DNA of 64,000 nucleotides from a virus (lineage: Duplodnaviria > Heunggongvirae > Uroviricota > Caudoviricetes): IMG/VR virus record IMGVR_UViG_3300041409_000458. One strand, written 5' to 3'. The notes under the pieces are model-generated. The model was not told the DNA's origin. It worked only from the letters and a program-made list of their open reading frames with translations, and made no database searches. The position numbers and the translations under genes were made by a program. Shown piece after piece: positions 18,131-59,625 of the stretch; position 1 is the stretch's first letter; each line of letters starts with the position of its first letter.

Positions 18131-18183
18131 AATTCTTTCTGTTTGTTCATTTTTGAATATCTAGCTCATATTTAATCTTTTAG

Positions 18184-18255
18184 TGCAGATAAAGAGAATC
18201 GAACTCTTGACAAAAGCTTTTAGAGAGCCATGTTCTACCCCTGAACTATATCTGC
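18184..18255 (-). tRNA. suppressor-like tRNA with anticodon CUA (amber-reading)
   Basis: Hand-folded: acceptor GCAGATA/TATCTGC (7 bp), D-arm GTTC-AGGGGTA-GAAC, anticodon loop CTCTAAA (C32 U33 CUA A37 A38), T-arm AAGAG-TTCGATT-CTCTT; anticodon stem has only 3 WC + 1 GU pairs. Confidence 0.55.
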
Positions 18256-21951: not shown

Positions 21952-23841
21952 TTAAATTGTGTTCTTTCTCACCAGTTCATATCTGTTTGACCTGTGGAAT
22001 GATTGCAATGGTGTATAAACATCCATTACATCCATATCCTTAAAGTTTGTTAACAGTTGCTCAATCTGAGCTGGATTTGGTGGAACAAACATGAAATTGT
22101 CAATACCTGAGAATCTGTCAGCCTTAGCTGAAGATGCCCCGGCAACATCAATGGCGATGATAAATGGTCTGAAGCCAAAGTATTTCTCACATCTCTTCAT
22201 AAAGTCATTGATTGAGCTCTCTGGAGAAGGCATGTTATTCCAGTTTCCATCGGAAATGATGGTCCAAACAGGGAAATGCTGTAATTGTTCAGTCATTGTT
22301 AAATCTCCCTGCAATTGCTGGTTCAGGTATTCCGGAATAGAACTAATATTCGTACCGTTTCCTGTCTGTACAGCATGACTAAACTCTCTTATTCTCTTGA
22401 GGTTATCAAGGAAATGAAGATTTGGGTCCAGTAATGGCTGACTTACCTTCTGTGCAGTTGTACGCAGAATTGAATTACCTGTTAAAGGAGCTCTGGCTGT
22501 CATTGTATTATACAACCTTGCATGACTTGAATAAAATCCAAGTAATGACCTTCCTTCTTCAGATGGGTTCTTTGTAAGACAGATTGTAGCCATGAAAGCA
22601 GCAAAATCAAAGGCTGTAATACCATTGGTTTTGTAAGTAGTCATTGAACGTGAATCATCCACAAACACCAGATTGTTGAATTCCAGCTTAATCTTATCAA
22701 GGAATGGCTGTAGTTTTAACTTATCAACAGTTCCAAGGATTATTTCTGTGAATAATTTCTCAAATTCAACAGCACCAACAGTAACTTTAGCTTCTTTCTT
22801 CAGCTTTACCACGTTTTCCTTTTCTTCTTCAGTAGCTGTTCCCTGACGAACCTTTTCTTCTACTACACGTACCTCGGTCTGCTTTGCTTCCTTAAACTTC
22901 TCCCAAGCTAAGAACCAGTTACCAATATCACCCCATTTCTCCTTGCACTTGTTATCCTTATCCAGAACCCTGCAACGAACTCTATAACGAGCAGTTGCTG
23001 GCAGTTTGTCAAGAAATAACAGGAAACTATCCTTATCAAATTCTCTCACCTTACCTGAGGCAAACATTACACTTTCCAGTTCACCAATGTATTCCTTTCT
23101 CCAGTTAATGTAACCAGTGAATTCAACATGTGTTGTTTTCTTCACATATGGCAGATTGGCTTTATCACACACCAATTTCAGGAAGTGTTGTTTTGCACCC
23201 ATGTTTGCTTTCGTTTCCAGAAGCATGGTTTTGTGATTCTTCCTCTTACTTAACCTTGGTCTTGTAAGGAATTTTGCCAACAGATGCTTATCAGAAGGAT
23301 TTCTTCTTTTAATAACACCTGCACAAAAGTCAGCAAGGTCATTCAGATATTCATCTGTACCATCAAAACTGGAAGTAACTGATACAACTTTCTTGGTCTT
23401 TTTGGTTGTTTTTACCCTGTTCTTAAGTAATGTATCAAATGAAGTAAATTCATTGAACAAGTTTGCAAACAGGAACTTCTTGAATTGTGGATAGTTCGTC
23501 TTTTTAAGCCATTCGAAGGCTAACAGAAATGGTTCCCTTTGTGATGAACCACCACTATCCGTTTTCACTCCTTTAAAGATATTGTGCTGACGAGCAGTAA
23601 TATCTCCAATAGAGAATAATAAGGAGAAGAACATCTCTCTTCCTTCTTTACTTTTCTGAGCTTCAGCCCAGCTTCTGTCGAGCATACCTTGGTTGATTGT
23701 CCCTTTCGAGGCATTCTGATAGAACTCGAGAGTGTTTCTCATTCCGTAGAATGGATTGTCTGTCTTTTTGTTCACTTGAACTGCTAAATTTGCCATGTTG
23801 ATGGTTTTGTAGGACACTTTTTCCTTTTGATTAACATTCAA
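21952..23841 (-). CDS. large protein with C-terminal von Willebrand factor A (vWA) domain
   Basis: 629 aa; MIDAS-like LVFVDDSRSMTT (DxSxS) and downstream WTIISDGNWN (DG motif). Confidence 0.5.
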   Translation of the reverse strand: MNVNQKEKVSYKTINMANLAVQVNKKTDNPFYGMRNTLEFYQNASKGTINQGMLDRSWAEAQKSKEGREMFFSLLFSIGDITARQHNIFKGVKTDSGGSSQREPFLLAFEWLKKTNYPQFKKFLFANLFNEFTSFDTLLKNRVKTTKKTKKVVSVTSSFDGTDEYLNDLADFCAGVIKRRNPSDKHLLAKFLTRPRLSKRKNHKTMLLETKANMGAKQHFLKLVCDKANLPYVKKTTHVEFTGYINWRKEYIGELESVMFASGKVREFDKDSFLLFLDKLPATARYRVRCRVLDKDNKCKEKWGDIGNWFLAWEKFKEAKQTEVRVVEEKVRQGTATEEEKENVVKLKKEAKVTVGAVEFEKLFTEIILGTVDKLKLQPFLDKIKLEFNNLVFVDDSRSMTTYKTNGITAFDFAAFMATICLTKNPSEEGRSLLGFYSSHARLYNTMTARAPLTGNSILRTTAQKVSQPLLDPNLHFLDNLKRIREFSHAVQTGNGTNISSIPEYLNQQLQGDLTMTEQLQHFPVWTIISDGNWNNMPSPESSINDFMKRCEKYFGFRPFIIAIDVAGASSAKADRFSGIDNFMFVPPNPAQIEQLLTNFKDMDVMDVYTPLQSFHRSNRYELVRKNTI

Positions 23842-23865
23842 ATGCTGGAATACCAGCTTTAATTT

Positions 23866-23884
23866 GATTGTAAGTGTCCAAAGT
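23866..23884 (-). promoter_or_regulatory. instance of recurring motif (minus sense TTAAG..ACTTACAA), here 25 nt upstream of the vWA gene start and just 3' of a tRNA
   Basis: Plus strand ttgattgtaagtgtccaaag; the same core ttgtaagt recurs about 10 times between 23.8 and 26.8 kb. Confidence 0.4.
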
Positions 23885-23893
23885 TAATAATTG

Positions 23894-23967
23894 TGTAGAA
23901 GGTAGGAGTCGAACCTACGACTTCTGATACCGGGTATCAGCACTCTAGCCAACTGAGTTACTTCTAC
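23894..23967 (-). tRNA. tRNA with canonical cloverleaf but atypical anticodon loop ACCCGGU (possible CCG, Arg-like)
   Basis: Acceptor GTAGAAG/CTTCTAC, D-arm ACTC-AGTTGGCTA-GAGT, anticodon stem CTGAT/ATCAG, T-arm GTAGG-TTCGACT-CCTAC, discriminator A; no U33. Confidence 0.55.
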
Positions 23968-23968
23968 A

Positions 23969-24026
23969 TGGTGAGGAACAGGTCTGAATCTTTCAAGCTT
24001 TCGCCAGCTAACTCAGTTGTTCCTCA
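23969..24026 (-). ncRNA. tRNA-like minihelix ending in CCA (9 bp helix TGAGGAACA/TGTTCCTCA + CCA) immediately 5' of the 23894..23967 tRNA
   Basis: Minus sense TGAGGAACA-N37-TGTTCCTCA-CCA-T followed directly by the tRNA 5' end; internal CTGA..TCAG helix and GCGAAAGC GNRA hairpin; no D or T loop. Confidence 0.35.
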
Positions 24027-24267
24027 TTTAAAGATACTTGGTTTTGTTGACATTATCATAAAATGTTGCGTCTACCAATTTCGCCACCCCACCATTTACT
24101 CAACAGTTACTCCTTTTGAGAGACTGAAGAGTTAATCACATACAAAGGGAACGTATCGTACGAGCCGTTCATGTCTACGTACAGTATTCGGGTATGTGAG
24201 CCCATTGTGGTGGGGCTAGGAATCGAACCTAGAAGTACCCTTTCGGGAGATTGTCTAGTAAGTATCT
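24027..24267 (-). tRNA. candidate circularly permuted / two-piece type II (Leu-like) tRNA gene
   Basis: In minus sense the 3' half (variable hairpin CCCGAAAGGG, T-arm CTAGG-TTCGATT-CCTAG, acceptor CCCCACC) at 24208..24245 lies upstream of the 5' half (GGTGGGG-TG-GCGAAATTGGTAGACGC-A-ACATT-TTATGAT-AATGT) at 24050..24093; 114 nt linker; flanked by inverted repeats agatactt (24260..24267 / 24031..24039). Confidence 0.4.
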
Positions 24268-24335
24268 TAATATTTTGCTAAGCACTATTTGGTCATTGTT
24301 GCAAAATGGTGTCCCACTGAAGGAACTTGATTTGT

Positions 24336-24352
24336 TTGTAAGTGCTTAAAAG
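24336..24352 (-). promoter_or_regulatory. recurring ttgtaagtgcttaaaag motif instance
   Basis: Plus tttgtaagtgcttaaaag; same motif family as 23866, 24659, 24794, 25906, 26716. Confidence 0.35.
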
Positions 24353-24355
24353 TTT

Positions 24356-24541
24356 TTACATATGTTGTCCTAATTCCTTATACGCTTCAGCTAATGCATT
24401 AATCGCTTCACGTATTTTTTGTTTGGCTTTAGGAATATTCTTAACTGCTTTGTTTTTGGCTACATAATCTTCAAGGTTGTTAGTTATGATAGAAGTTCTA
24501 TCCATAGCTTCATGAAGGTAACCTTTGTCTACTTTTGCCAT
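24356..24541 (-). CDS. hypothetical small protein embedded in tRNA array
   Basis: 61 aa ORF MAKVDKGYLHEAMDRTSII...; helical, K-rich. Confidence 0.3.
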   Translation of the reverse strand: MAKVDKGYLHEAMDRTSIITNNLEDYVAKNKAVKNIPKAKQKIREAINALAEAYKELGQHM

Positions 24542-24576
24542 TGGTTTTATTTTAAAAATGAAAGACGCTTATCATA

Positions 24577-24647
24577 TTACAATTGTGGGAATTGAACCCA
24601 CGAGTTTTTATCCAGATTAAAATGCAGAACCACTCTGCAAATTGTTA
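24577..24647 (-). tRNA. tRNA-like element with anticodon CUG (Gln-like) but poorly paired acceptor stem
   Basis: D-arm GCAG-AGTGGTT-CTGC, anticodon stem TTTTA/TAAAA with loop ATCTGGA (U33, CUG), T-arm GTGGG-TTCAATT-CCCAC; 5' TAACAAT vs 3' AATTGTA pairs at only 4 of 7 positions. Confidence 0.4.
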
Positions 24648-24670
24648 GATTGATTTGATTGTAAGTGTCT

Positions 24671-24810
24671 TAATAAATTGAGGATACTTATTTTTTGATT
24701 TCGTGAAAAGAAATTGCACTACCAACTATGCTACCCCTCCATTAACCGACGTGAAACTTGCGGAGGGGGCTGGATTCGAACCAACGTATATTTTGATGGT
24801 CTTGTAAGTA
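24671..24810 (-). tRNA. candidate circularly permuted / two-piece tRNA gene (anticodon UUC)
   Basis: Minus sense order: leader AGGATACTT (24799..24807) - T-arm GTTGG-TTCGAAT-CCAGC (24762..24778) - acceptor 3' CCCCTCC-G (24754..24761) - 20 nt linker - acceptor 5' GGAGGGG (24727..24733) - TA - D-arm GCAT-AGTTGGTA-GTGC - A - anticodon arm ATTTC-TTTTCAC-GAAAT (24691..24707) - trailer AAGTATCCT (24674..24682); acceptor halves perfectly complementary (7/7); leader/trailer 9 bp complementary. Confidence 0.45.
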
Positions 24811-25059
24811 TCCTAAAAAGGTGATATAGTTAGGGGACCCTCTTATCAGGAGGACCTGCCAGCTTATGAGGCCAACAGTTAAAATTTTATTATAAGTAGC
24901 AACTCCAGACCATCTGGATTTTCGACTACTACCGGAGACTCCCCTCGTATGTTATCTACTCCGTGGCTTGTGAAGCTTCGGGAGCGTATTTAATATTTTT
25001 ACTATAGCTTCATTCTTTGCATGAATGTGTGCTGGTAGAAAATGTGATTTTGCAAGATA

Positions 25060-25551
25060 CTATTTATGCTGTAACCAGCTACCATAATCCAAATTTCCTC
25101 TCTTCTTGTTACACTTCTTACATGCTGTAAGTAGGTTTGATGGATGACTTGCACCTCCTGATTCCCATGTGATAATATGGTCTACAGTCAAAGGTACATT
25201 ATCTATTCCACAATACCTACAACAATAATTATCCCTACGGAATACTTGCCATGAAATCTTTTGGTCAATTTGTCTCTGACCTTTACGAAGCAGTTTTCCT
25301 TCTTCGCCTTCAATGTTACACTTGTCAAGCTGGTCTTGTAAAGTATACCATTGCTCAGATGTTGGTGTGATTATAATCAACTCACCTTTCACTTTCTCTA
25401 GAGGTAAATTGACAAGGTAAACCTCATCATCCTTACCCTCCATCAAAAGACCTTTTATTTGAATATCATTACCCCATGAGAGTAATGGGATTTCGTTAAA
25501 CCCTAGAACTTTCGTCATAAGAGTAATTTTAAATGTTAAAAAAGAAGTCAC
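25060..25551 (-). CDS. HNH endonuclease
   Basis: 163 aa; C-terminal CRYCGIDNVPLTVDHIITWESGGASHPSNLLTACKKCNKKRGN is a canonical HNH motif. Confidence 0.7.
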   Translation of the reverse strand: MTSFLTFKITLMTKVLGFNEIPLLSWGNDIQIKGLLMEGKDDEVYLVNLPLEKVKGELIIITPTSEQWYTLQDQLDKCNIEGEEGKLLRKGQRQIDQKISWQVFRRDNYCCRYCGIDNVPLTVDHIITWESGGASHPSNLLTACKKCNKKRGNLDYGSWLQHK

Positions 25552-25658
25552 TAAATCAATACGACAAATTGGTGGGCCGAAACCCTAAGTGTTAGTAAGT
25601 GACTTATAATCTTCAATGTAGCGGAGTGTTTAAGTTTCCGTGCCAATTGAGATATTTG

Positions 25659-25767
25659 TGGGGGAGATAGGAGTTGAACCTATTATCTGTACATTGTAAG
25701 TGTATTGCTTTAACCTTTGAATTTCTTATAAGTAACAAACTATTACTTTTTCTTTAGCTTCTCCCCC
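25659..25767 (-). ncRNA. tRNA-like element: 7 bp acceptor (GGGGGAG/CTCCCCC) and T-arm (ATAGG-TTCAACT-CCTAT) enclosing a 75 nt insert without recognisable D/anticodon arms
   Basis: Perfect 7 bp G-rich acceptor complementarity 100 nt apart; canonical T-loop; insert contains the recurring ACTTACAA motif (25693..25715). Confidence 0.3.
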
Positions 25768-25803
25768 TATTTTACCATTTTTCTAAACGGTACCAAAATA
25801 AAA

Positions 25804-25919
25804 GCTACTAATTTTTTTGTCAAATTACAAGTTTGATGCTCAACCGCTGAGCCAAGATTCCAATGAAGGATTCTATTGGATTCGAACCAATGTTATTTTA
25901 ATTTTCTTGTAAGTAGCTT
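25804..25919 (-). tRNA. candidate circularly permuted / two-piece tRNA gene (anticodon UGU, Thr-like)
   Basis: Minus sense order: leader AAGCTACTT (25911..25919) - T-arm ATTGG-TTCGAAT-CCAAT (25875..25891) - acceptor 3' AGAATCC-T (25867..25874) - 5 nt linker - acceptor 5' GGAATCT (25855..25861; 6/7 complementary) - TG - D-arm GCTC-AGCGGTT-GAGC - A - anticodon arm TCAAA-CTTGTAA-TTTGA (25820..25836) - trailer TAGTAGCT (25804..25811; 8 bp complementary to leader). Confidence 0.45.
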
Positions 25920-26044
25920 AAAAGTTTGATGTAGCACCCTCATAAAGAAAGGGGTCATGTTGACTTACTCTTCCCACAATGCTACCACATCGTTTACCAC
26001 CGCACAACCATCCGTAGTAAACTAGGCTCCTCCGCTAAGAGCAA

Positions 26045-26569
26045 TTATGAGGGTGCTTCATCTTTAATTATTTTATAACCATAATGTTCAAGTACTTCCT
26101 TGCAAGTATCTATGAATTCCTTATCGGTTAAATTGTGTTTCATCTTGTTTATCGTAGCATCAGATAACCCTAAATTTCCAAGCGAATTATCTCCACCTCT
26201 TGATACAGGAATAATATGGTCAAAGTGGTAAGACCTAGAGTCATTAATATCTATTTTGCGTCCAGATAGATAGCAGGTATAGTTATCTCCTATCTTCTCT
26301 CTGAGCTCTTCTAATGTAAACAGAGGAAGGGCTTTTCCCTTCTTATTTGGAAGACCTCTTCTTGCAAACTGAGATTTTTTACAATAGAATTGTTCTCTTT
26401 TCCTAACTAAGGTACTCTTTCCTCGACTTGTTTTTGTTCTCTGCCGTGTCTTTTGCTTCTGTCCTTGTCCACAATGGTAAGAAATATTTCCCTTCGAACA
26501 CCCAACAATTGCTTGGATTTCATCGTAGGATTTTCCTTCTGCTCTTAAACTTAATATTTGCTCTTTCAT
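26045..26569 (-). CDS. HNH endonuclease with N-terminal helix-turn-helix
   Basis: 174 aa; HFDHIIPVSRGGDNSLGNLGL...N..K HNH motif; N-terminal LSLRAEGKSYDEIQAIVGCSKGNISYH HTH. Confidence 0.7.
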   Translation of the reverse strand: MKEQILSLRAEGKSYDEIQAIVGCSKGNISYHCGQGQKQKTRQRTKTSRGKSTLVRKREQFYCKKSQFARRGLPNKKGKALPLFTLEELREKIGDNYTCYLSGRKIDINDSRSYHFDHIIPVSRGGDNSLGNLGLSDATINKMKHNLTDKEFIDTCKEVLEHYGYKIIKDEAPS

Positions 26570-26639
26570 AATTAGTAGTTCAATACAAATGTATGGAAAA
26601 TGTATTGAACTACCAAATTTATTTTCAAAGAAACTTTAA

Positions 26640-26709
26640 TCACAATGTGAGAGTTGAACTCACTACCCTTTTGTTTGAAAAAATGCTCTACCAAGTGAGC
26701 TAATTGTAT
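26640..26709 (-). tRNA. tRNA-like element (canonical D- and T-arms, weak acceptor and ambiguous anticodon loop, possibly CAA)
   Basis: D-arm GCTC-ACTTGGTAG-AGC, T-arm GTGAG-TTCAACT-CTCAC; 5' ATACAAT vs 3' ATTGTGA pairs at 5 of 7 positions plus one GU wobble; anticodon region TTTTTTCAAACAAAAGG ambiguous; preceded by motif at 26716..26735. Confidence 0.35.
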
Positions 26710-26715
26710 AAGTTG

Positions 26716-26735
26716 TTTTGTAAGTTTCTTAATAC
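26716..26735 (-). promoter_or_regulatory. recurring ttttgtaagtttcttaatac motif upstream (minus sense) of tRNA-like element and HNH gene
   Basis: Same ttgtaagt..cttaa core as other instances. Confidence 0.35.
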
Positions 26736-29637: not shown

Positions 29638-29898
29638 TCATCTGTTAACATTCCTACGAGTCTTCCCCTCTTTTTTGGAACCTTGTCCCAAAGATTTGTT
29701 TCTGGTTGATGCGTTCTTTTCATTGAAATATTTTTTAAACTGTTTTTCGTATGCTTGTTTGTAAGTTTTTCGACCTTGCATCAGCTCTTTTAGTGCTGTT
29801 TCTTCTGCCAAACTTTTACTGTATATCCTAGAATCATCAGATTGTGAATAATACCAGTCATGATTGGCTAATCTCGTCTTAAATTCTTTTAAATTCAT
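29638..29898 (-). CDS. hypothetical basic protein
   Basis: 86 aa ORF; preferred over overlapping 29520..29723 ORF. Confidence 0.3.
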   Translation of the reverse strand: MNLKEFKTRLANHDWYYSQSDDSRIYSKSLAEETALKELMQGRKTYKQAYEKQFKKYFNEKNASTRNKSLGQGSKKEGKTRRNVNR

Positions 29899-32909: not shown

Positions 32910-33422
32910 ATGAAAACAATAGAATGTATATGTAATAACTGTAATAAGTCTTTTACAAAACCACTAAAGGAACATACGAGGTCCCAAAAAGTAGGGAGGT
33001 CTTCATTTTGCTCCTTGGCTTGTGCTAGTAAATTCAACCCAAATAGATTTGGAGGGAAAGTAGGTAATAGAATTCCACCTAGAAATCCCACTAATCCATT
33101 CAAGTATTATCTAAGAAATATAATGAGGAGACATCATAAATGGGATGTCACTCTTGAGTACCTAAAGCAAATCTGGGATGAGCAAGAAGGAATATGTCCT
33201 TATACTAAAATTAAACTTGTTCTAAATACACATAGTCATAGAAATACTGACATACGATTTACTGCCTCTTTAGACAGAATTAATTCTTCAATAGGTTATA
33301 TTAAAGGAAATGTTCAATTTGTCTCAATGGCAATAAATTATATGAAATCTTCTATGTCTCATAGTGATACTACAGAATTCTTACAAATTATAACAAAGAA
33401 CTTGAATCCACTACTTTCATAA
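32910..33422 (+). CDS. HNH_3-type homing endonuclease, free-standing on the opposite strand
   Basis: 170 aa; N-terminal Cys cluster CICNNC...CSLAC; C-terminal CPYTKIKLVL ... ASLDRINSSIGYIKGNVQFVSMAIN matches the HNH_3 motif; lone plus-strand gene in minus-strand block. Confidence 0.55.
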   Translation: MKTIECICNNCNKSFTKPLKEHTRSQKVGRSSFCSLACASKFNPNRFGGKVGNRIPPRNPTNPFKYYLRNIMRRHHKWDVTLEYLKQIWDEQEGICPYTKIKLVLNTHSHRNTDIRFTASLDRINSSIGYIKGNVQFVSMAINYMKSSMSHSDTTEFLQIITKNLNPLLS

Positions 33423-33682
33423 TGGCGTGGACTATATCTTCACCCGTTCTGGGTGTTGGATGCTCTGGGCTCACCGTAGTGTCCCTAGTCTCTGAACCTT
33501 CCTCAATCTTCCCTGAGGCTCGGCTGCTGATTGCCTACGTCTTTACGTTTAGGGTTCCAGCAATTCTTCCAATTTTTTCATCTGTATTCCTACAAAGCGA
33601 GTCCGATTTTATTCAACTCGGGTCCAAACAGGTGTCTTTCAAAAAATCAATCCTTACGAACTTTGGGCGATTACCATTTATT

Positions 33683-37176: not shown

Positions 37177-38091
37177 TTAGTTTATAAAGTTATAGGGACG
37201 GTTATCTTTGTACTGTAGCTCATATCCAGCAGCAATTGCATCTTTCTTGTGGATTGTAACAAAATCTCCATTTTCCAATAATAATGCAGCGTGCCAAGGT
37301 GAATGTTTGGCTTTACCCTGTTTTGAAGGTATTAGCTGAAATGAGTACTTTGCTCCACTGTTGACAGAAGGATGCATTGATAAACGTATGTGTTGCTTAA
37401 ACTCCTGTCTCACAAGTCCTGAATAAGCTTCATTACGTAACATCATCTCTCTTGTCAAAGCTTTTGCTGCTTTCTGCCTTTGGTTATTCGAAGGATATTC
37501 TTTGATAGCTTCCTCTTGTTGCATGAATATTGTCATACCTTTGTACAAGTAATTCACATCATTATCAAATAATATTCTTCTCTGTAATTCCTCTGGAGAG
37601 ATTCCGAATTGGGCTACTATCTTCTCCCTGATGGTAGATTTAGTCAACTTCTTGCTATAGAAGTGAGTCATATCAAACCATGTCATTGGAGCAACTTTAC
37701 TCATATCTATTGACATTTCTTCATATTGTTCAACGGTCCTGTCTTCAATACTCAGAATATCATTAAAAATGAACCCATCAGAAACAATTGTCATATTTAC
37801 TCCCGGAGGATACAAAGCACGAATGCAAGCATCAAAGTTAGCAAAGTTTTGAAAGGCTACCTGCTCAGCCATATCTGGTAGAGTTCCTAATACTTTATCA
37901 CGGTCATTCTTGCTTTTCATAGGAAAACCAAGCATAACAAATGATATTGGAAGATTCTTTGAAATAAACCAAAGAATTTTCTCGTACAGAACAGCTTTAC
38001 CAGTTTGCTCATATTGGTCATCAGCCATTGGAGCCATCTTGAATGCTTCGAAAGCACTGAGAATAGCAGTAGTTAAAAGTATGTGTTCCAT
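37177..38091 (-). CDS. Dit1/PvcA-like (isonitrile-synthase family) protein, tentative
   Basis: 304 aa; segment ISFVMLGFPMKSKNDRDKVLGTLPDMAEQVAFQNF...LYPPGVNMTIVSDGFIFNDILSIEDRTVEQYEEM resembles the conserved FPFKSPN...LPD.gE...YpPG...SDG.vf.D..gv.D core of the Dit1/PvcA family; recalled from memory. Confidence 0.35.
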   Translation of the reverse strand: MEHILLTTAILSAFEAFKMAPMADDQYEQTGKAVLYEKILWFISKNLPISFVMLGFPMKSKNDRDKVLGTLPDMAEQVAFQNFANFDACIRALYPPGVNMTIVSDGFIFNDILSIEDRTVEQYEEMSIDMSKVAPMTWFDMTHFYSKKLTKSTIREKIVAQFGISPEELQRRILFDNDVNYLYKGMTIFMQQEEAIKEYPSNNQRQKAAKALTREMMLRNEAYSGLVRQEFKQHIRLSMHPSVNSGAKYSFQLIPSKQGKAKHSPWHAALLLENGDFVTIHKKDAIAAGYELQYKDNRPYNFIN

Positions 38092-57915: not shown

Positions 57916-59625
57916 ATGCCAGAATTCATTCCCGGAACAGACACAAGAACGGGCTTAGGTACAATAGGTCACCCCGGTATTTTTATCGGTCAAGCACGTT
58001 CACTTGGTTTAAAAAACCATGTAGACATTCCTTATGTAACAGCTCTTGCACCACAACAGCCACTCGATTTTGGCGTATTAGATTTGTGGGCTTTAAGACA
58101 AAGGACTGACTCCCCATTATTAACATTAGCTATAGACAACGCTCAAGTTATCTATACTGATGCAGACTATTACACATTTGAGCTTCCGTCTGCTGCTGAT
58201 TCTACTACTCGTTTAGTTTCGGGTGGTCTTGACAAGGACAAGCAGGGTATGGATGGTGAAGAAATTCCATTTGTAGTTAGCAGACGTGACCTTGGTCCGG
58301 GCTCTATCTTCAAGTTTGACTTGACTTCACGTATCTCTTTCACTGTAGTTGACCGTCCTATCGAGCAGATGGGTGAGCACTATAAGGTGTGGGCAGTACT
58401 GAATACAAACGCACATGTTAAGTTTGTAACTAAAGCTGAGTTCCAGCCACAACGTCAGATTATCAAATTAGCTGATATGAGAGGTCTTGATTTCTCGTCT
58501 CACAAATCTGTATGGTCTATCAGTGGTGTGCCTTCTCTTGCTAAGTACAAGAACTACTTATCAAACATGATGCTACAGCAGTCTTATCGTGTAACATCAG
58601 GTGCTTGTGAGTATCTTAATACCAGCACAAGATTTGATGCTAAGCAGATTTCCATGATGGAGCAGACTGTATTACAGTTCTATCAAGTTCGTGGTATTGC
58701 TGACAACAAGGTAATTGACCTACGTAATCCAGAACATTACAAGTTATACTTCCAGAGATTACAGGAAGAAAAAATTAAGGGTAATGGTGAAGCTGCAATG
58801 GTAAACTTATTAGATAGTGTTGCTATCAATATGATGCAGAAGCAGAATAACGATATCATGATTTGGTCTGACCAGATTGATATCTTAAGAGATGGATATG
58901 ATACTCAGAGACTTGTTCCCGGTGTATGGTTCCAGCTTGATATGGCAGGTTTCAAGCATACTTATTCGCTTGACACCTTCTCTCTTGACACATTAACCGA
59001 TGCTATCAAGGACTTTGAATTTGGTAAAGTACCTTTAAGAGAGTCTATCTCTGACAATGTGTACATCATCAAGACAGGTCGTGGTGGTCAGGAATTAATC
59101 TACAAGGCATTTATGAAGAGTGGATTCCAGATTCCTGCACAGTTAAACAACGAACAGTTCAACTTCATTAGTGGTCCAAATGCTGCAAACCTGCAGTACA
59201 ATGCATCACGTTTCACATCCTTCCAGATACCAAACATTGGTTACATCAAGGTGGATTGGGAACCCGGCTTTGACCCAGTGAAGGCTGATGAGTTTGTTAA
59301 CCCAATTCTTGCAGGTGGTTACCGTCTATCTTCATACACAATGTTGATTGAAGATTACAACACATCAAGAGACAACATAGCTATCATCCGTAAGAATGGT
59401 ACTAAGATGAGAATGATTGTTGAGGCTGGTGATAACACTCACCCATTATTAAGGTCTTCTACAAACATCAATGGTCAGAACATTACCGTGTCTCAGGCTT
59501 CAGATGAGTTGACAGGTTATCAGGTTAAGTTTATTAGTAAGGCTGACACAGCGATTGTGAAAGACCCAACTAAGCTACTGAAACTGGTTCCGAAGAACCC
59601 AAGAACAGGAATAGCAGCCCTATAA
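57916..59625 (+). CDS. major capsid protein (putative)
   Basis: 569 aa; position after portal and scaffold; beta-rich; C-terminal KDPTKLLKLVPKNPR motif. Confidence 0.45.
   Translation: MPEFIPGTDTRTGLGTIGHPGIFIGQARSLGLKNHVDIPYVTALAPQQPLDFGVLDLWALRQRTDSPLLTLAIDNAQVIYTDADYYTFELPSAADSTTRLVSGGLDKDKQGMDGEEIPFVVSRRDLGPGSIFKFDLTSRISFTVVDRPIEQMGEHYKVWAVLNTNAHVKFVTKAEFQPQRQIIKLADMRGLDFSSHKSVWSISGVPSLAKYKNYLSNMMLQQSYRVTSGACEYLNTSTRFDAKQISMMEQTVLQFYQVRGIADNKVIDLRNPEHYKLYFQRLQEEKIKGNGEAAMVNLLDSVAINMMQKQNNDIMIWSDQIDILRDGYDTQRLVPGVWFQLDMAGFKHTYSLDTFSLDTLTDAIKDFEFGKVPLRESISDNVYIIKTGRGGQELIYKAFMKSGFQIPAQLNNEQFNFISGPNAANLQYNASRFTSFQIPNIGYIKVDWEPGFDPVKADEFVNPILAGGYRLSSYTMLIEDYNTSRDNIAIIRKNGTKMRMIVEAGDNTHPLLRSSTNINGQNITVSQASDELTGYQVKFISKADTAIVKDPTKLLKLVPKNPRTGIAAL

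What the first reader, a model, noticed from the sequence alone, without database searches (positions are those of the whole stretch)
23866..26735. Recurring 17-20 nt motif (minus sense TTAAG-NN-ACTTACAAG) associated with tRNA/tRNA-like units
The core ttgtaagt(a/g)(t/c)cttaa(a/t)a recurs about 10 times within 3 kb and essentially nowhere else in the window. Plus-strand instances start near 23866, 24255, 24336, 24659, 24794, 25592, 25693, 25906 and 26716. In minus sense it sits 14-25 nt upstream of the 3' halves of the permuted units, upstream of tRNA-like 5' ends, and 25 nt upstream of the vWA gene start. Inverted copies of it form the trailers of the permuted units. It may be a phage-specific promoter, an RNA processing signal, or the terminal inverted repeat of small mobile tRNA cassettes. 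It does not match the Bacteroides sigma-A -7 TAnnTTTG consensus.
Basis: seen in the sequence. Interest (0 to 1): 0.6.

Follow-up and report, generated by a model that had tools for sequence, protein, structure and literature searches.

The report
Closing-stem motif of phage Y-like RNAs
The repeated 15-nt motif is one strand of a short conserved RNA stem that clamps each of eight tRNA-like or scrambled-tRNA modules encoded next to a phage gene whose predicted fold resembles the RNA-binding protein Ro60, so it looks like a new phage version of the Ro60/Y-RNA system rather than a promoter or a mobile-element end.

Summary
The motif is real. There are eight good copies, all in minus sense, between 23.8 and 26.8 kb, and none that is credible elsewhere in the 64 kb. 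Every copy has a complementary partner (A/U)AGU-N'N'-CUU 43-220 nt downstream, and the variable NN positions change in step with that partner. Motif and partner form an 8-9 bp RNA helix that closes a "unit". The unit payload is either a circularly permuted cloverleaf (T arm, acceptor hairpin, D arm, anticodon arm), a normal-order tRNA-like RNA with an A/U-only acceptor stem, or a small GC hairpin.

The array lies directly upstream of a 614-aa gene. The last unit sits in that gene's 5' UTR. The predicted fold of the protein matches Ro60 best of all PDB folds.

Strict units lie within 3.5 kb of the homologous gene in 41 of 42 loci (155 sense-strand, 3 antisense). They can be upstream or downstream of it. 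Three permuted units give full-length but sub-threshold matches to Rfam YrlA.

Best reading: the motif is the protein-recognition and closing stem of Y-RNA-like tRNA mimics that serve a divergent phage Ro60-like protein. Promoter and inverted-repeat readings are not supported. Protein binding is inferred, not shown. It is a new variant of a known kind.

The parts
26628..26732 (-). Unit 1. 5' arm AAGAAACUU at 26730-26722, followed by ACAA. The payload is a normal-order tRNA-like RNA (ARAGORN 'Leu-CAA', 26709-26639) with an A/U-only acceptor stem. 3' arm AAGUUUCUU at 26636-26628.
   Evidence: 9/9 Watson-Crick pairs; the MFE fold closes with this helix. Model R1 scores 28 bits.
25802..25921 (-). 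Unit 2. 5' arm AAGCUACUU at 25919-25911, followed by ACAA. The payload is a permuted cloverleaf: T arm, acceptor hairpin, D arm and an anticodon arm with loop CUUGUAA. 3' arm UAGUAGCUU at 25810-25802.
   Evidence: RNAalifold structure; 23 of 27 pairs show compensatory changes. It is a training sequence of R1, so its score is not independent.
25655..25712 (-). Orphan half unit. A degenerate motif AAUACACUUACAAU (25706-25693) is followed by a T arm and CUCCCCC-A-C. No 3' partner was found.
25545..25607 (-). Unit 3, small. 5' arm AAGUCACUU at 25605-25597, followed by ACUA. The 43-nt payload holds a GC hairpin. 3' arm UAGUGACUU at 25553-25545.
24681..24816 (-). Unit 4. 5' arm AGGAUACUU at 24814-24806, followed by ACAA. 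The payload is a permuted cloverleaf with acceptor strands CCCCUCC and GGAGGGG and anticodon loop UUUUCAC. 3' arm AAGUAUCCU at 24689-24681.
   Evidence: Rfam YrlA matches full length at 27 bits. R1 scores 89 bits, E 3e-17, and this unit was not in the training set.
24562..24673 (-). Unit 5. 5' arm AAGACACUU at 24671-24663, followed by ACAA. The payload is a normal-order tRNA-like RNA (ARAGORN 'Gln-CUG', 24647-24576) with acceptor stem ACAAUU/AAUUGU. 3' arm AAGCGUCUU at 24570-24562 (8/9 pairs).
24279..24350 (-). Unit 6, small. 5' arm UAAGCACU(U), followed by ACAA, at 24348-24336. The 52-nt payload holds a GUUCC/GGGAC hairpin. 3' arm AGUGCUUA at 24287-24279.
24031..24270 (-). Unit 7. 5' arm AAGAUACUU at 24268-24260, followed by ACUA. 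The payload has a variable-arm-like hairpin, a T arm and CCCCACC-A-C, then a conserved insert of about 110 nt, then GGUGGGG, a D arm and an anticodon-like arm. 3' arm AAGUAUCUU at 24039-24031.
   Evidence: 9/9 Watson-Crick pairs; orthologues in L001 and L002.
23811..23882 (-). Unit 8, small, in the 5' UTR of the Ro60-like gene. 5' arm UGGACACUU at 23880-23872, followed by ACAA. The payload contains the inner hairpin GCUGG-UAUU-CCAGC. 3' arm AAGUGUCCU at 23819-23811, 15 nt before the ATG.
   Evidence: A unit occupies this position in all 8 close genomes. In the distant clade the unit spans the start codon. R1 scores 29 bits.
21952..23796 (-). Gene for a 614-aa protein. The N-terminal ~370 residues are all-helical and the C-terminal part is a vWA domain with a DxSxS MIDAS motif. 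The fold is Ro60-like. This is the proposed partner of the motif helix.

Best explanation
The motif is not a DNA signal. It is the 5' strand, (A/U)(A/G)G-NN-ACUU, of an 8-9 bp RNA helix, together with the unpaired ACAA that follows it. Its partner, (A/U)AGU-N'N'-CU(U), lies 30-230 nt downstream. The helix clamps the two ends of a structured RNA module.

The window holds eight such units in one orientation. They are most likely co-transcribed with the flanking genes. Their payloads are:
- circularly permuted cloverleaves (5' arm, spacer, T arm, acceptor hairpin, D arm, anticodon arm, 3' arm);
- normal-order tRNA-like RNAs with A/U-only acceptor stems;
- small GC hairpins.

This is the architecture of bacterial Y RNAs of the YrlA type. 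In those RNAs a stem made by the 5' and 3' ends carries the Ro60 site on its 5' strand, and the body is a permuted tRNA mimic.

I infer that the sequence-conserved inner end of the helix (ACUU/AAGU) plus the ACAA is the recognition site for the adjacent Ro60-like protein, and that the outer base pairs only need to pair. I also infer that the unit in the 5' UTR of that gene (spanning the start codon in the distant clade) gives feedback control.

Shown here: the motif, the helix and its covariation, the permuted cloverleaf, the genomic linkage to the gene, and the Ro60-like predicted fold.

Inferred: transcription as RNA, binding by the protein, autoregulation, and the downstream function (tethering or presenting tRNA-like modules).
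For: 1. Helix. In 39 curated units from 8 genomes, 96% of cells are paired. There are 48 double-sided changes against 11.5 +/- 4.2 in shuffles (0 of 500 reach the observed value), and slid controls pair at only 35-55%. A 9/9 Watson-Crick partner within 300 nt is expected about 0.001 times per unit.

2. Folding. The minimum-energy fold of every unit closes with this helix.

3. Independent structure prediction. RNAalifold on 24 permuted units predicts the closing helix, T arm, acceptor hairpin, D arm and anticodon arm. Of 27 pairs, 23 show compensatory changes.

4. Custom model. Model R1, built from those units, matches only inside 23809-26732 on the minus strand. It scores 89 bits on unit 4, which was not in the training set.

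5. Rfam. YrlA (RF02553) aligns full length to three units, with its outer stem on our helix: 27, 28 and 22.5 bits. One unit (L005 1471) has the canonical YrlA topology.

7. Linkage. 41 of 42 loci have at least one sense-strand unit within 3.5 kb of the gene, with 155 sense units against 3 antisense. Arrays lie upstream in one clade and directly downstream in another, and one unit always sits at the gene start.

8. Converse test. An IMG/VR scan for motif plus T loop returned 85 loci; 84 re-matched the pattern when re-scanned, and 35 of these had a >=8/9 partner. Of those 35, 26 carry the gene within the fetched piece. Of the 49 without a partner, 4 carry it.

9. Strand. At internal helix positions G.U pairs outnumber A.C pairs 27 to 8, which points to sense-strand RNA.

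10. Precedent. Y RNA genes lie within 4 kb of rsr on the same strand. YrlA has the order V, T arm, acceptor stem-loop, D arm. Ro60 contacts mainly the 5' strand (PMC4201824). A phage Ro60 binds two Y-like RNAs encoded upstream of its gene (PMC12135203).
Against: - No sequence method links the protein to TROVE/Ro60. Pfam, PHROGs, a profile search of PDB sequences, and Pfam on 44 family members all find nothing.
- The motif differs from the known Ro60-site motifs GNCGAAN0-1G and GGUCCGA.
- The Rfam YrlA scores are far below the gathering score of 69.
- Partners were chosen as the best complement in a search window, which inflates the percentage paired.
- No expression or binding data exist.
- Some payloads look like working tRNAs, so a pure tRNA-maturation role for the helix is not excluded.
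Confidence: 0.6

Rival explanations
1. The helix is a general processing or stability stem that does not depend on the Ro60-like protein. It would mark each tRNA or tRNA-like RNA in a polycistronic transcript for excision by a host or phage nuclease, or protect its ends from exonucleases, much as leader-trailer stems flank rRNAs. The permuted units would then be true permuted tRNA genes. They would mature either by cleavage and ligation through a circular intermediate, or by RNase P and 3' processing into two pieces held together by the helix.
For: - The helix flanks RNAs that ARAGORN and Rfam call tRNAs.
- Permuted units have canonical 7-nt anticodon loops (C/U-U-NNN-R-A) and G-starting acceptor 5' strands.
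- Four of the 24 permuted units encode N-CCA right after the 3' acceptor strand (A3).
- Units are packed 9-11 nt apart, as in a processed polycistron.
- Relatives encode a CCA-adding-family enzyme and EF-Tu nearby.
Against: - The helix is a continuous 8-9 bp stem. That is too short for classical RNase III, and it has no bulge-helix-bulge (A2, A3).
- No ligase or splicing endonuclease was seen among the neighbouring genes.
- About a third of the units carry only a small hairpin, and one sits in an mRNA leader.
- Other phage tRNAs in the window and in the loci lack the helix.
- Helix-flanked normal-order 'tRNAs' never start with G (0 of 31, against 56 of 89 outside units, p 4.5e-11).
- Strict sequence conservation of ACUUACAA/AAGU, tied to a single neighbouring gene, argues for a dedicated protein partner.
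Confidence: 0.25
2. The motif is a phage-specific promoter, recognised as DNA by a phage RNA polymerase. Each copy would drive one small RNA or the Ro-like gene.
For: - It is a strand-specific 15-nt conserved sequence upstream of each small RNA and of one protein gene.
- Phages related to Crassvirales (terminase about 27% identical) are known to encode their own RNA polymerases (own knowledge).
Against: - A promoter gives no reason for its variable positions to covary with a sequence 30-230 nt downstream.
- No conserved upstream element exists, and the first copy starts 8-20 nt after a stop codon.
- In the distant clade the partner arm lies inside the coding sequence.
- Copies are absent from the rest of the 64-kb window.
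- The sigma-70-type scan shows no enrichment.
Confidence: 0.05
3. The motif and its complement are DNA-level inverted repeats. They could be the ends of small mobile tRNA cassettes, recombination sites, or targets of the two HNH endonucleases in the array.
For: - Inverted repeats bracket discrete cassettes.
- Cassette content differs between relatives, and some units are nested inside others.
- Two HNH genes lie inside the array.
Against: - The arms differ between units but match within each unit. That is the signature of base pairing, not of a shared protein-binding end.
- The two arms are asymmetric: ACAA follows only the 5' arm (A2).
- The G.U over A.C bias points to sense-strand RNA.
- All copies share one orientation, the same as the Ro-like gene: 155 sense against 3 antisense.
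- No transposase, integrase or target-site duplication was seen.
- The payload itself shows RNA covariation.
Confidence: 0.05

Closest known systems
Bacterial YrlA-type Y RNAs with Ro60/Rsr (Chen et al. 2014, PMC4201824; Rfam RF02553)
   Same: - The genes are clustered within a few kb of a Ro60-type gene and on the same strand.
- The 5' and 3' ends pair into a stem, and the conserved sequence lies on the 5' strand next to an internal loop.
- The body is a circularly permuted tRNA mimic in the order V, T arm, acceptor stem-loop, D arm.
- Several RNAs occur per locus.
- M. smegmatis YrlA is cut by RNase P and receives CCA, which matches the G-starting acceptor strands and the NCCA loops seen here.
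   Different: - The motif is AAG-NN-ACUU-ACAA rather than GNCGAAN0-1G.
- Both helix strands are conserved and covary.
- Most permuted units carry a complete anticodon arm with a 7-nt loop, and the clamp leaves from the variable-region position.
- Some payloads are normal-order tRNA-like RNAs or bare hairpins.
- Arrays hold up to 8 units, sometimes nested.
- The scores are far below the Rfam gathering score.
- The protein is not recognisable as TROVE by sequence.
Thermus phage phiLo Ro60 with Yrl1 and Yrl2 (PMC12135203)
   Same: - It is a phage-encoded Ro60.
- The Y-like RNAs are encoded just upstream of its gene.
- The RNAs have a stem, bulge, stem design.
   Different: - phiLo Ro60 is a recognisable TROVE protein, and its RNAs carry the CGAA motif.
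- It has two RNAs rather than an array.
- No tRNA or permuted-tRNA payload is described for them.
Permuted tRNA genes of Cyanidioschyzon merolae, and archaeal split or BHB-flanked RNAs (own knowledge: Soma et al. 2007)
   Same: - The 3' half of a cloverleaf is encoded upstream of the 5' half.
- Leader and trailer are complementary.
   Different: - Those systems use a bulge-helix-bulge motif that is cut by the splicing endonuclease and then ligated through a circular intermediate.
- Here the helix is continuous and sequence-conserved, and no such enzymes were found.
- The same helix also closes payloads that are not permuted or are not tRNA-like.
Leader-trailer processing stems of bacterial rRNA and tRNA operons (RNase III sites; own knowledge)
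   Same: Complementary sequences on both sides of a stable RNA within a polycistronic transcript.
   Different: - Those stems are long (about 20 bp or more) and are not conserved in sequence from one RNA to the next.
- Here the stem is 8-9 bp, with an invariant core shared by all units and by all relatives.

Membership tests
YrlA / bacterial Y RNA (Rfam RF02553) | Encoded within about 4 kb of a Ro60 orthologue, on the same strand | tested here: met
   All 8 window units lie 15 nt to 2.9 kb upstream of the 614-aa gene on the same strand. 41 of 42 loci have at least one sense unit within 3.5 kb, with 155 sense against 3 antisense. Caveat: the gene is Ro60-like by predicted fold only.
YrlA / bacterial Y RNA (Rfam RF02553) | The 5' and 3' ends pair into a stem that closes the RNA | tested here: met
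   An 8-9 bp helix is 96% paired and shows 48 double-sided changes against 11.5 in shuffles. MFE folds and RNAalifold both close with it. The true RNA ends were not mapped.
YrlA / bacterial Y RNA (Rfam RF02553) | Conserved 5'-strand motif GNCGAAN0-1G (the Ro60/Rsr contact) | tested here: not met
   The consensus here is (U)AAG-NN-ACUUACAA. No CGAA is present (A2; A3).
YrlA / bacterial Y RNA (Rfam RF02553) | tRNA-like domain in the permuted order V, T arm, acceptor stem-loop, D arm | tested here: met
   Met for the permuted units (window units 2, 4 and 7, and about 45 units in the loci). The Rfam alignment places the T, AS and D elements correctly. Not met for the normal-order and small units.
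YrlA / bacterial Y RNA (Rfam RF02553) | Reaches the Rfam gathering score (69 bits) | tested here: not met
   Scores are 27, 28 and 22.5 bits. The gathering-threshold scan gave no hit.
YrlA / bacterial Y RNA (Rfam RF02553) | Bound by the Ro60 protein in vivo or in vitro | not testable with these tools
   Requires RIP, CLIP or EMSA.
Ro60 / TROVE proteins | TROVE domain detectable by sequence (Pfam PF05731) | tested here: not met
   No TROVE hit for the window protein, for the 34 aligned homologues, or for 10 distant members. A profile search against PDB sequences found nothing.
Ro60 / TROVE proteins | Helical-repeat N-terminal domain followed by a C-terminal vWA domain, with a Ro60-like overall fold | tested here: inconclusive
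Ro60 / TROVE proteins | MIDAS motif DxSxS in the vWA domain | tested here: met
   The sequence reads VDDSRSM. D380, S382 and S384 are invariant in all 34 homologues.
Permuted tRNA genes processed through a BHB (C. merolae / archaeal type) | Leader and trailer form a bulge-helix-bulge (two 3-nt bulges around a 4-bp helix) | tested here: not met
   The helix is a continuous 8-9 bp stem with no bulges in 39 plus 24 aligned units.
Permuted tRNA genes processed through a BHB (C. merolae / archaeal type) | The 3' half is encoded upstream of the 5' half of one cloverleaf | tested here: met
   See the RNAalifold structure of A3 and units 2, 4 and 7.
Phage or host promoter | A DNA element that works without a downstream complement, with transcription starting at or after it | tested here: not met
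   The variable positions covary with a downstream partner. There is no room for, and no conservation of, upstream elements. Sigma-70-like sites are not enriched. Transcription start sites were not mapped.
Terminal inverted repeats of a mobile element | Both ends match one consensus bound by an element-encoded transposase or recombinase, with the element's gene or target duplications present | tested here: not met
   The arms covary unit by unit and are asymmetric, with ACAA on one arm only (A2). G.U pairs outnumber A.C pairs 27 to 8. Only HNH ORFs lie nearby. All units share a single orientation.

The most novel reading that the evidence does not exclude
The permuted units may be more than inert mimics. 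In this reading, RNase P and CCA addition or trimming open the acceptor hairpin. That would fit the G-starting 5' strands, the N-x-C-A or NCCA loop starts, and the ...UCCCC-A-C class. The result would be a two-piece tRNA held together by the acceptor stem and by the motif helix, which leaves from the variable-arm position.

The Ro60-like protein would bind the helix and act as an assembly or protection platform.

Near-identical scaffolds differ only in the anticodon triplet (UUU, GUU, GAU, GUC, UCA). The phage could therefore be deploying swappable split tRNAs. They might decode during infection, including stop-codon suppression, or they might act as decoys or sponges for host anticodon nucleases.
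Probability: 0.2. Interest if true: 0.85.

Novelty: new variant of a known kind. Interest (0 to 1): 0.62.

Why it matters
Ro60 and its Y RNAs are conserved from bacteria to humans, yet what the tRNA-like module of bacterial Y RNAs does is still unknown. This lineage could help in several ways:

- It is a widespread lineage of uncultured phages distantly related to Crassvirales. Its Ro60-like protein is missed by sequence methods.
- It carries arrays of up to eight Y-like RNAs with a new, very clean recognition motif.
- Their bodies range from bare hairpins to complete permuted cloverleaves with hypervariable anticodons.
- That gives a natural series of variants for asking what the tRNA-like module binds. 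It suggests that phages use the Ro60/Y-RNA platform to manage or imitate tRNAs during infection.
- It shows that 'tRNA genes' and gaps in phage tRNA clusters can hide another class of RNA. For annotation, the helix-flanked 'tRNAs' (never G1, A/U-only acceptor stems) should not be counted as ordinary tRNAs.

Tried and rejected
- **Searches for close relatives.** DNA and protein searches against INPHARED phages found nothing for the region or for the 614-aa protein. A single-protein scan of IMG/VR found no close relative. The alignment-based scan did succeed.
- **Sequence annotation of the 614-aa protein.** Pfam and PHROGs gave nothing, and a profile search against PDB sequences gave nothing. 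Pfam on 34 homologues showed only weak VWA_2 in 6 of them. Pfam on 10 distant members gave nothing. A profile search of 1.84 billion representatives found only 196 clusters and no bridge to TROVE.
- **Promoter idea.** The sigma-70-type scan was not enriched, and the upstream 70 nt hold no conserved element.
- **Copies outside the cluster.** The 58605 copy was rejected as chance. The strict-scan hit at 29771 is inside an ORF with an 8/9 partner and was also judged chance.
- **Other tRNAs in the window.** Cys, the CUA suppressor, the one at 36.7 kb, Phe, and Arg at 23.9 kb have no flanking motif.
- **An Rfam tRNA hit.** The hit at L002 4049-4123 turned out to be the 5' half of a permuted unit plus a fortuitous 3' strand.
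- **Acceptor-pairing statistics.** My first attempt used truncated ARAGORN sequences and was discarded. In the redo, only the G1 count and the GC-pair count are trusted.
- **Literature.** No paper on permuted tRNAs in phages, on Ro60 in crAss-like phages, or on DUF2828 function was found in the held library. The Burroughs-Aravind RNA-repair paper and two Wolin reviews were not held.
- **AFDB fold search.** It was unavailable.

Full report
**Observation**

All genes in 21.9-27.2 kb run on the minus strand. The pattern TTGTAAGTRYCTTAA with up to 2 mismatches occurs 8 times in the window against 1.42 expected (0 of 100 shuffles), and 7 of those lie in 23868-26732.

Read in minus sense, the motif is (U)UAAG-NN-ACUUACAA. 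Good copies lie at 26732-26718, 25921-25907, 25607-25593, 24816-24802, 24673-24659, 24350-24336, 24270-24256 and 23882-23868. A degenerate copy sits at about 25706-25693. The copy at 58605 lies inside an ORF on the other strand and has no partner, so I treat it as chance.

The exception is 24794, which should be 24802.

**The key feature: a partner for every copy**

Each copy has a complementary sequence (A/U)AGU-N'N'-CUU 43-220 nt downstream in minus sense. The two free positions change together with that partner:
- AAGAAACUU with AAGUUUCUU
- AAGCUACU with AGUAGCUU
- AGGAUACUU with AAGUAUCCU
- AAGAUACUU with AAGUAUCUU
- GGACACUU with AAGUGUCC

In 39 curated units from the window and seven related contigs, the 9-bp helix is 96% paired. 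It has 48 double-sided changes against 11.5 +/- 4.2 in column shuffles (0 of 500), and slid registers pair at only 35-55%. The partner was picked as the best complement within 330 nt, which inflates the percentage paired. Even so, a 9/9 Watson-Crick match in such a search is expected only about once per thousand units, and most units have one.

Invariant positions are the G of AAG, CUUA, an A of ACAA and, on the partner, AG. In more distant relatives only the inner end ACUU-ACAA / AAGU stays fixed, and the outer 4-5 pairs covary freely. At internal helix positions G.U pairs outnumber A.C pairs 27 to 8. This fits pairing in the sense-strand RNA.

**What the helix encloses**

Minimum-energy folds of all units close with this helix. 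The payloads fall into three kinds:

1. Circularly permuted cloverleaves. The order is 5' arm, ACAAG, spacer, T arm (GGUUCGAnUCC), a 7-bp acceptor hairpin with a 4-10 nt loop or a long insert, D arm, anticodon-like arm, CAAAAA, 3' arm. Window units 2, 4 and 7 are of this kind.
2. Normal-order tRNA-like RNAs that ARAGORN calls tRNA. Units 1 and 5 are of this kind.
3. Small GC hairpins, often with UUCG-type loops. Units 3, 6 and 8 are of this kind.

RNAalifold on 24 permuted units from 20 genomes independently recovers the closing helix and all four arms. Of 27 pairs, 23 show compensatory changes.

A covariance model built from them (R1) matches the window only between 23809 and 26732, on the minus strand. 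It scores 89 bits (E 3e-17) on unit 4, which was not used for training.

The helix-flanked normal-order 'tRNAs' are unusual. None of 31 starts with G, and their acceptor stems are almost purely A/U. By contrast, 56 of 89 tRNAs outside units in the same sequences start with G (Fisher p 4.5e-11). The other tRNAs of the window have no flanking motif.

**The neighbouring gene**

The array ends 15 nt before the ATG (23796) of a 614-aa ORF, and unit 8 lies in its leader.

The protein has no Pfam or PHROG hit, and a profile of 34 homologues finds nothing among PDB sequences. An AlphaFold2 model (pLDDT 84.5, pTM 0.78) shows an all-helical N-terminal part of about 370 residues and a C-terminal vWA domain. 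The MIDAS motif DxSxS is invariant.

**Linkage across genomes**

Homologues of the protein sit on contigs of 90-185 kb. In seven contigs at 54-87% identity, the motif array lies upstream of the gene on the same strand, with one small unit 60-85 nt before the ATG.

In 35 IMG/VR loci at 44-64% identity, units lie either upstream or, in the clade at 48-50% identity, directly after the stop codon. That clade also has one unit that spans the start codon, with its 3' arm AAGUAAC lying in codons 6-8.

With strict criteria, 41 of 42 loci have at least one sense-strand unit within 3.5 kb of the gene. The totals are 155 sense units against 3 antisense.

For the converse test, I scanned IMG/VR for ACTTACAA-N14-30-GGTTCGANTCC, which returned 85 loci. 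In the re-scan, 84 of them matched the pattern and 35 had a >=8/9 partner. Of those 35, 26 carry the gene inside the fetched piece, and several of the rest are short pieces of contigs known to carry it. Of the 49 without a partner, only 4 carry the gene, and those are near-miss real units. Units persist with homologues down to 35% identity.

**Comparison with what is known**

Bacterial Y RNAs of the YrlA type are encoded within 4 kb of the Ro60 orthologue rsr, on the same strand. Their ends form a stem whose 5' strand carries the presumed Ro60 contact (GNCGAAN0-1G). Their body is a permuted tRNA mimic in the order V, T arm, acceptor stem-loop, D arm. M. smegmatis YrlA is cut by RNase P and receives CCA. 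YrlA-like sequences were reported in 22 phages (PMC4201824). A Thermus phage Ro60 binds two Y-like RNAs encoded upstream of its gene (PMC12135203).

The Rfam YrlA model aligns full length to three of the units, with its outer stem placed on our helix. The scores are only 22-28 bits against a gathering score of 69. One unit (L005 1471) has the canonical YrlA topology without an anticodon hairpin.

**Best explanation**

The motif is the 5' strand, plus the adjoining ACAA, of the closing stem of Y-RNA-like tRNA mimics. The conserved core is probably the recognition site of the adjacent Ro60-like protein. The unit at the gene's own start probably provides feedback.

The RNA structure and the genomic linkage are shown. 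Transcription, binding and regulation are inferred.

**Rivals**

*A generic processing or stability stem, including true permuted-tRNA maturation.* This remains possible. The permuted units have canonical anticodon loops and G-starting acceptor strands, and four of the 24 encode NCCA in the acceptor loop. Against it, the stem is continuous, short and sequence-conserved. It has no bulge-helix-bulge. It also encloses non-tRNA hairpins and an mRNA leader. It is tied to one gene.

*A promoter.* This does not explain the covariation. There is no upstream conservation, and there is hardly any room: 8-20 nt after stop codons and 9-11 nt between units.

*DNA inverted repeats of mobile cassettes.* This does not fit the unit-specific covariation, the arm asymmetry, the single orientation, the G.U bias, or the lack of a transposase. 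Two HNH genes are simply inserted in the array.

**Context and novelty**

The phage has portal, terminase, capsid and DNA polymerase genes. Its terminase is about 27% identical to Crassvirales terminases. I found no paper in the held library that describes Ro60-like genes or Y-like RNAs in such phages.

I rate this a new variant of a known kind (Ro60 with YrlA-type Y RNAs). It has a new recognition motif, arrays of up to eight units that are sometimes nested, two ways of attaching a tRNA-like body, and complete anticodon arms. On otherwise identical scaffolds the triplet varies (UUU, GUU, GAU, GUC, UCA).

The boldest reading that the evidence does not exclude is that the permuted units become two-piece tRNAs clamped by the helix. 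They would then serve as working tRNAs or as decoys.

Noticed in passing
window 33408-33624 (-): Group I catalytic intron (Rfam RF00028, 75 bits, E 3e-17), about 7 kb from the array. Its host gene was not examined.
   Followed up: no
window 18183-18255 (-): A tRNA with a CUA anticodon (ARAGORN 'Pyl'; Rfam tRNA 64 bits). It is an amber suppressor and suggests TAG recoding. Relatives carry UCA (opal) tRNA-like payloads inside motif units (L002 3793-3869, L003 6279-6352, L008, L009).
   Followed up: partly
window 25655-25780 (-): Orphan half unit. A degenerate motif at 25706-25693 is followed by a T arm and CUCCCCC-A-C, with no 3' partner. A matching GGGGGAG strand lies upstream at about 25776. 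This looks like a rearranged or decayed unit next to an HNH gene.
   Followed up: partly
window about 24095-24205 (-), inside unit 7; also L001 6598-6819 and L002 5541-5762: A conserved insert of about 110 nt sits in the acceptor loop of the long permuted unit (CAAUGGGCUCACAUACCCGAAUA ... GUAUGUGAU, a long hairpin). It has no Rfam match and its function is unknown.
   Followed up: no
L035 7195-7445; L016 7347-7610; L020 7389-7588: Nested units: a complete motif-closed unit sits inside the acceptor loop of an outer permuted unit.
   Followed up: partly
Alignment A3: L020 7467-7589, L024 7415-7531, L025 7373-7492, L028 7482-7596, L035 7521-7638: Near-identical permuted scaffolds differ only in the anticodon triplet (UUU, GUU, GAU, GUC, UCA), within a canonical CU-NNN-AA loop.
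   Followed up: partly
Alignment A3, columns 57-60 (acceptor hairpin loop); for example L002, L008, L028, L031: The loop that follows the 3' acceptor strand often starts N-x-C-A. It is exactly NCCA in 4 of the 24 units, against about 0.4 expected. This hints at processing to a CCA end, as in M. smegmatis YrlA.
   Followed up: partly
window 26709-26639 and 24647-24576; 31 cases in the loci: ARAGORN 'tRNAs' inside motif units never start with G and have A/U-only acceptor stems (for example ACAAUU/AAUUGU). tRNAs outside units look normal. Such calls would inflate phage tRNA counts.
   Followed up: yes
L005 1615-2805; L004 13956-14699; L001 2833-3966, L002 1863-3002, L003 4711-5796: Relatives carry several notable genes near the arrays. 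An EF-Tu gene lies between two units. There is a PolyA_pol/CCA-adding-family gene. There is also an adenylosuccinate-synthetase-like gene, which could be of the PurZ type.
   Followed up: no
window 26045-26569 (-) and 25060-25551 (-): Two HNH endonuclease ORFs are inserted between units of the array. The first also has an N-terminal helix-turn-helix.
   Followed up: partly
window 37177-38091 (-); also L004 2877-3776: A DIT1_PvcA (isocyanide-synthase-type) gene with Pfam E 7e-62, which is unusual in a phage.
   Followed up: no
window 23968-24030 (-), just upstream of tRNA-Arg 23967-23893: A strong hairpin (GAGGAACA...UGUUCCUC) lies between unit 7 and an unflanked tRNA-Arg(CCG). Its role is unknown.
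   Followed up: no
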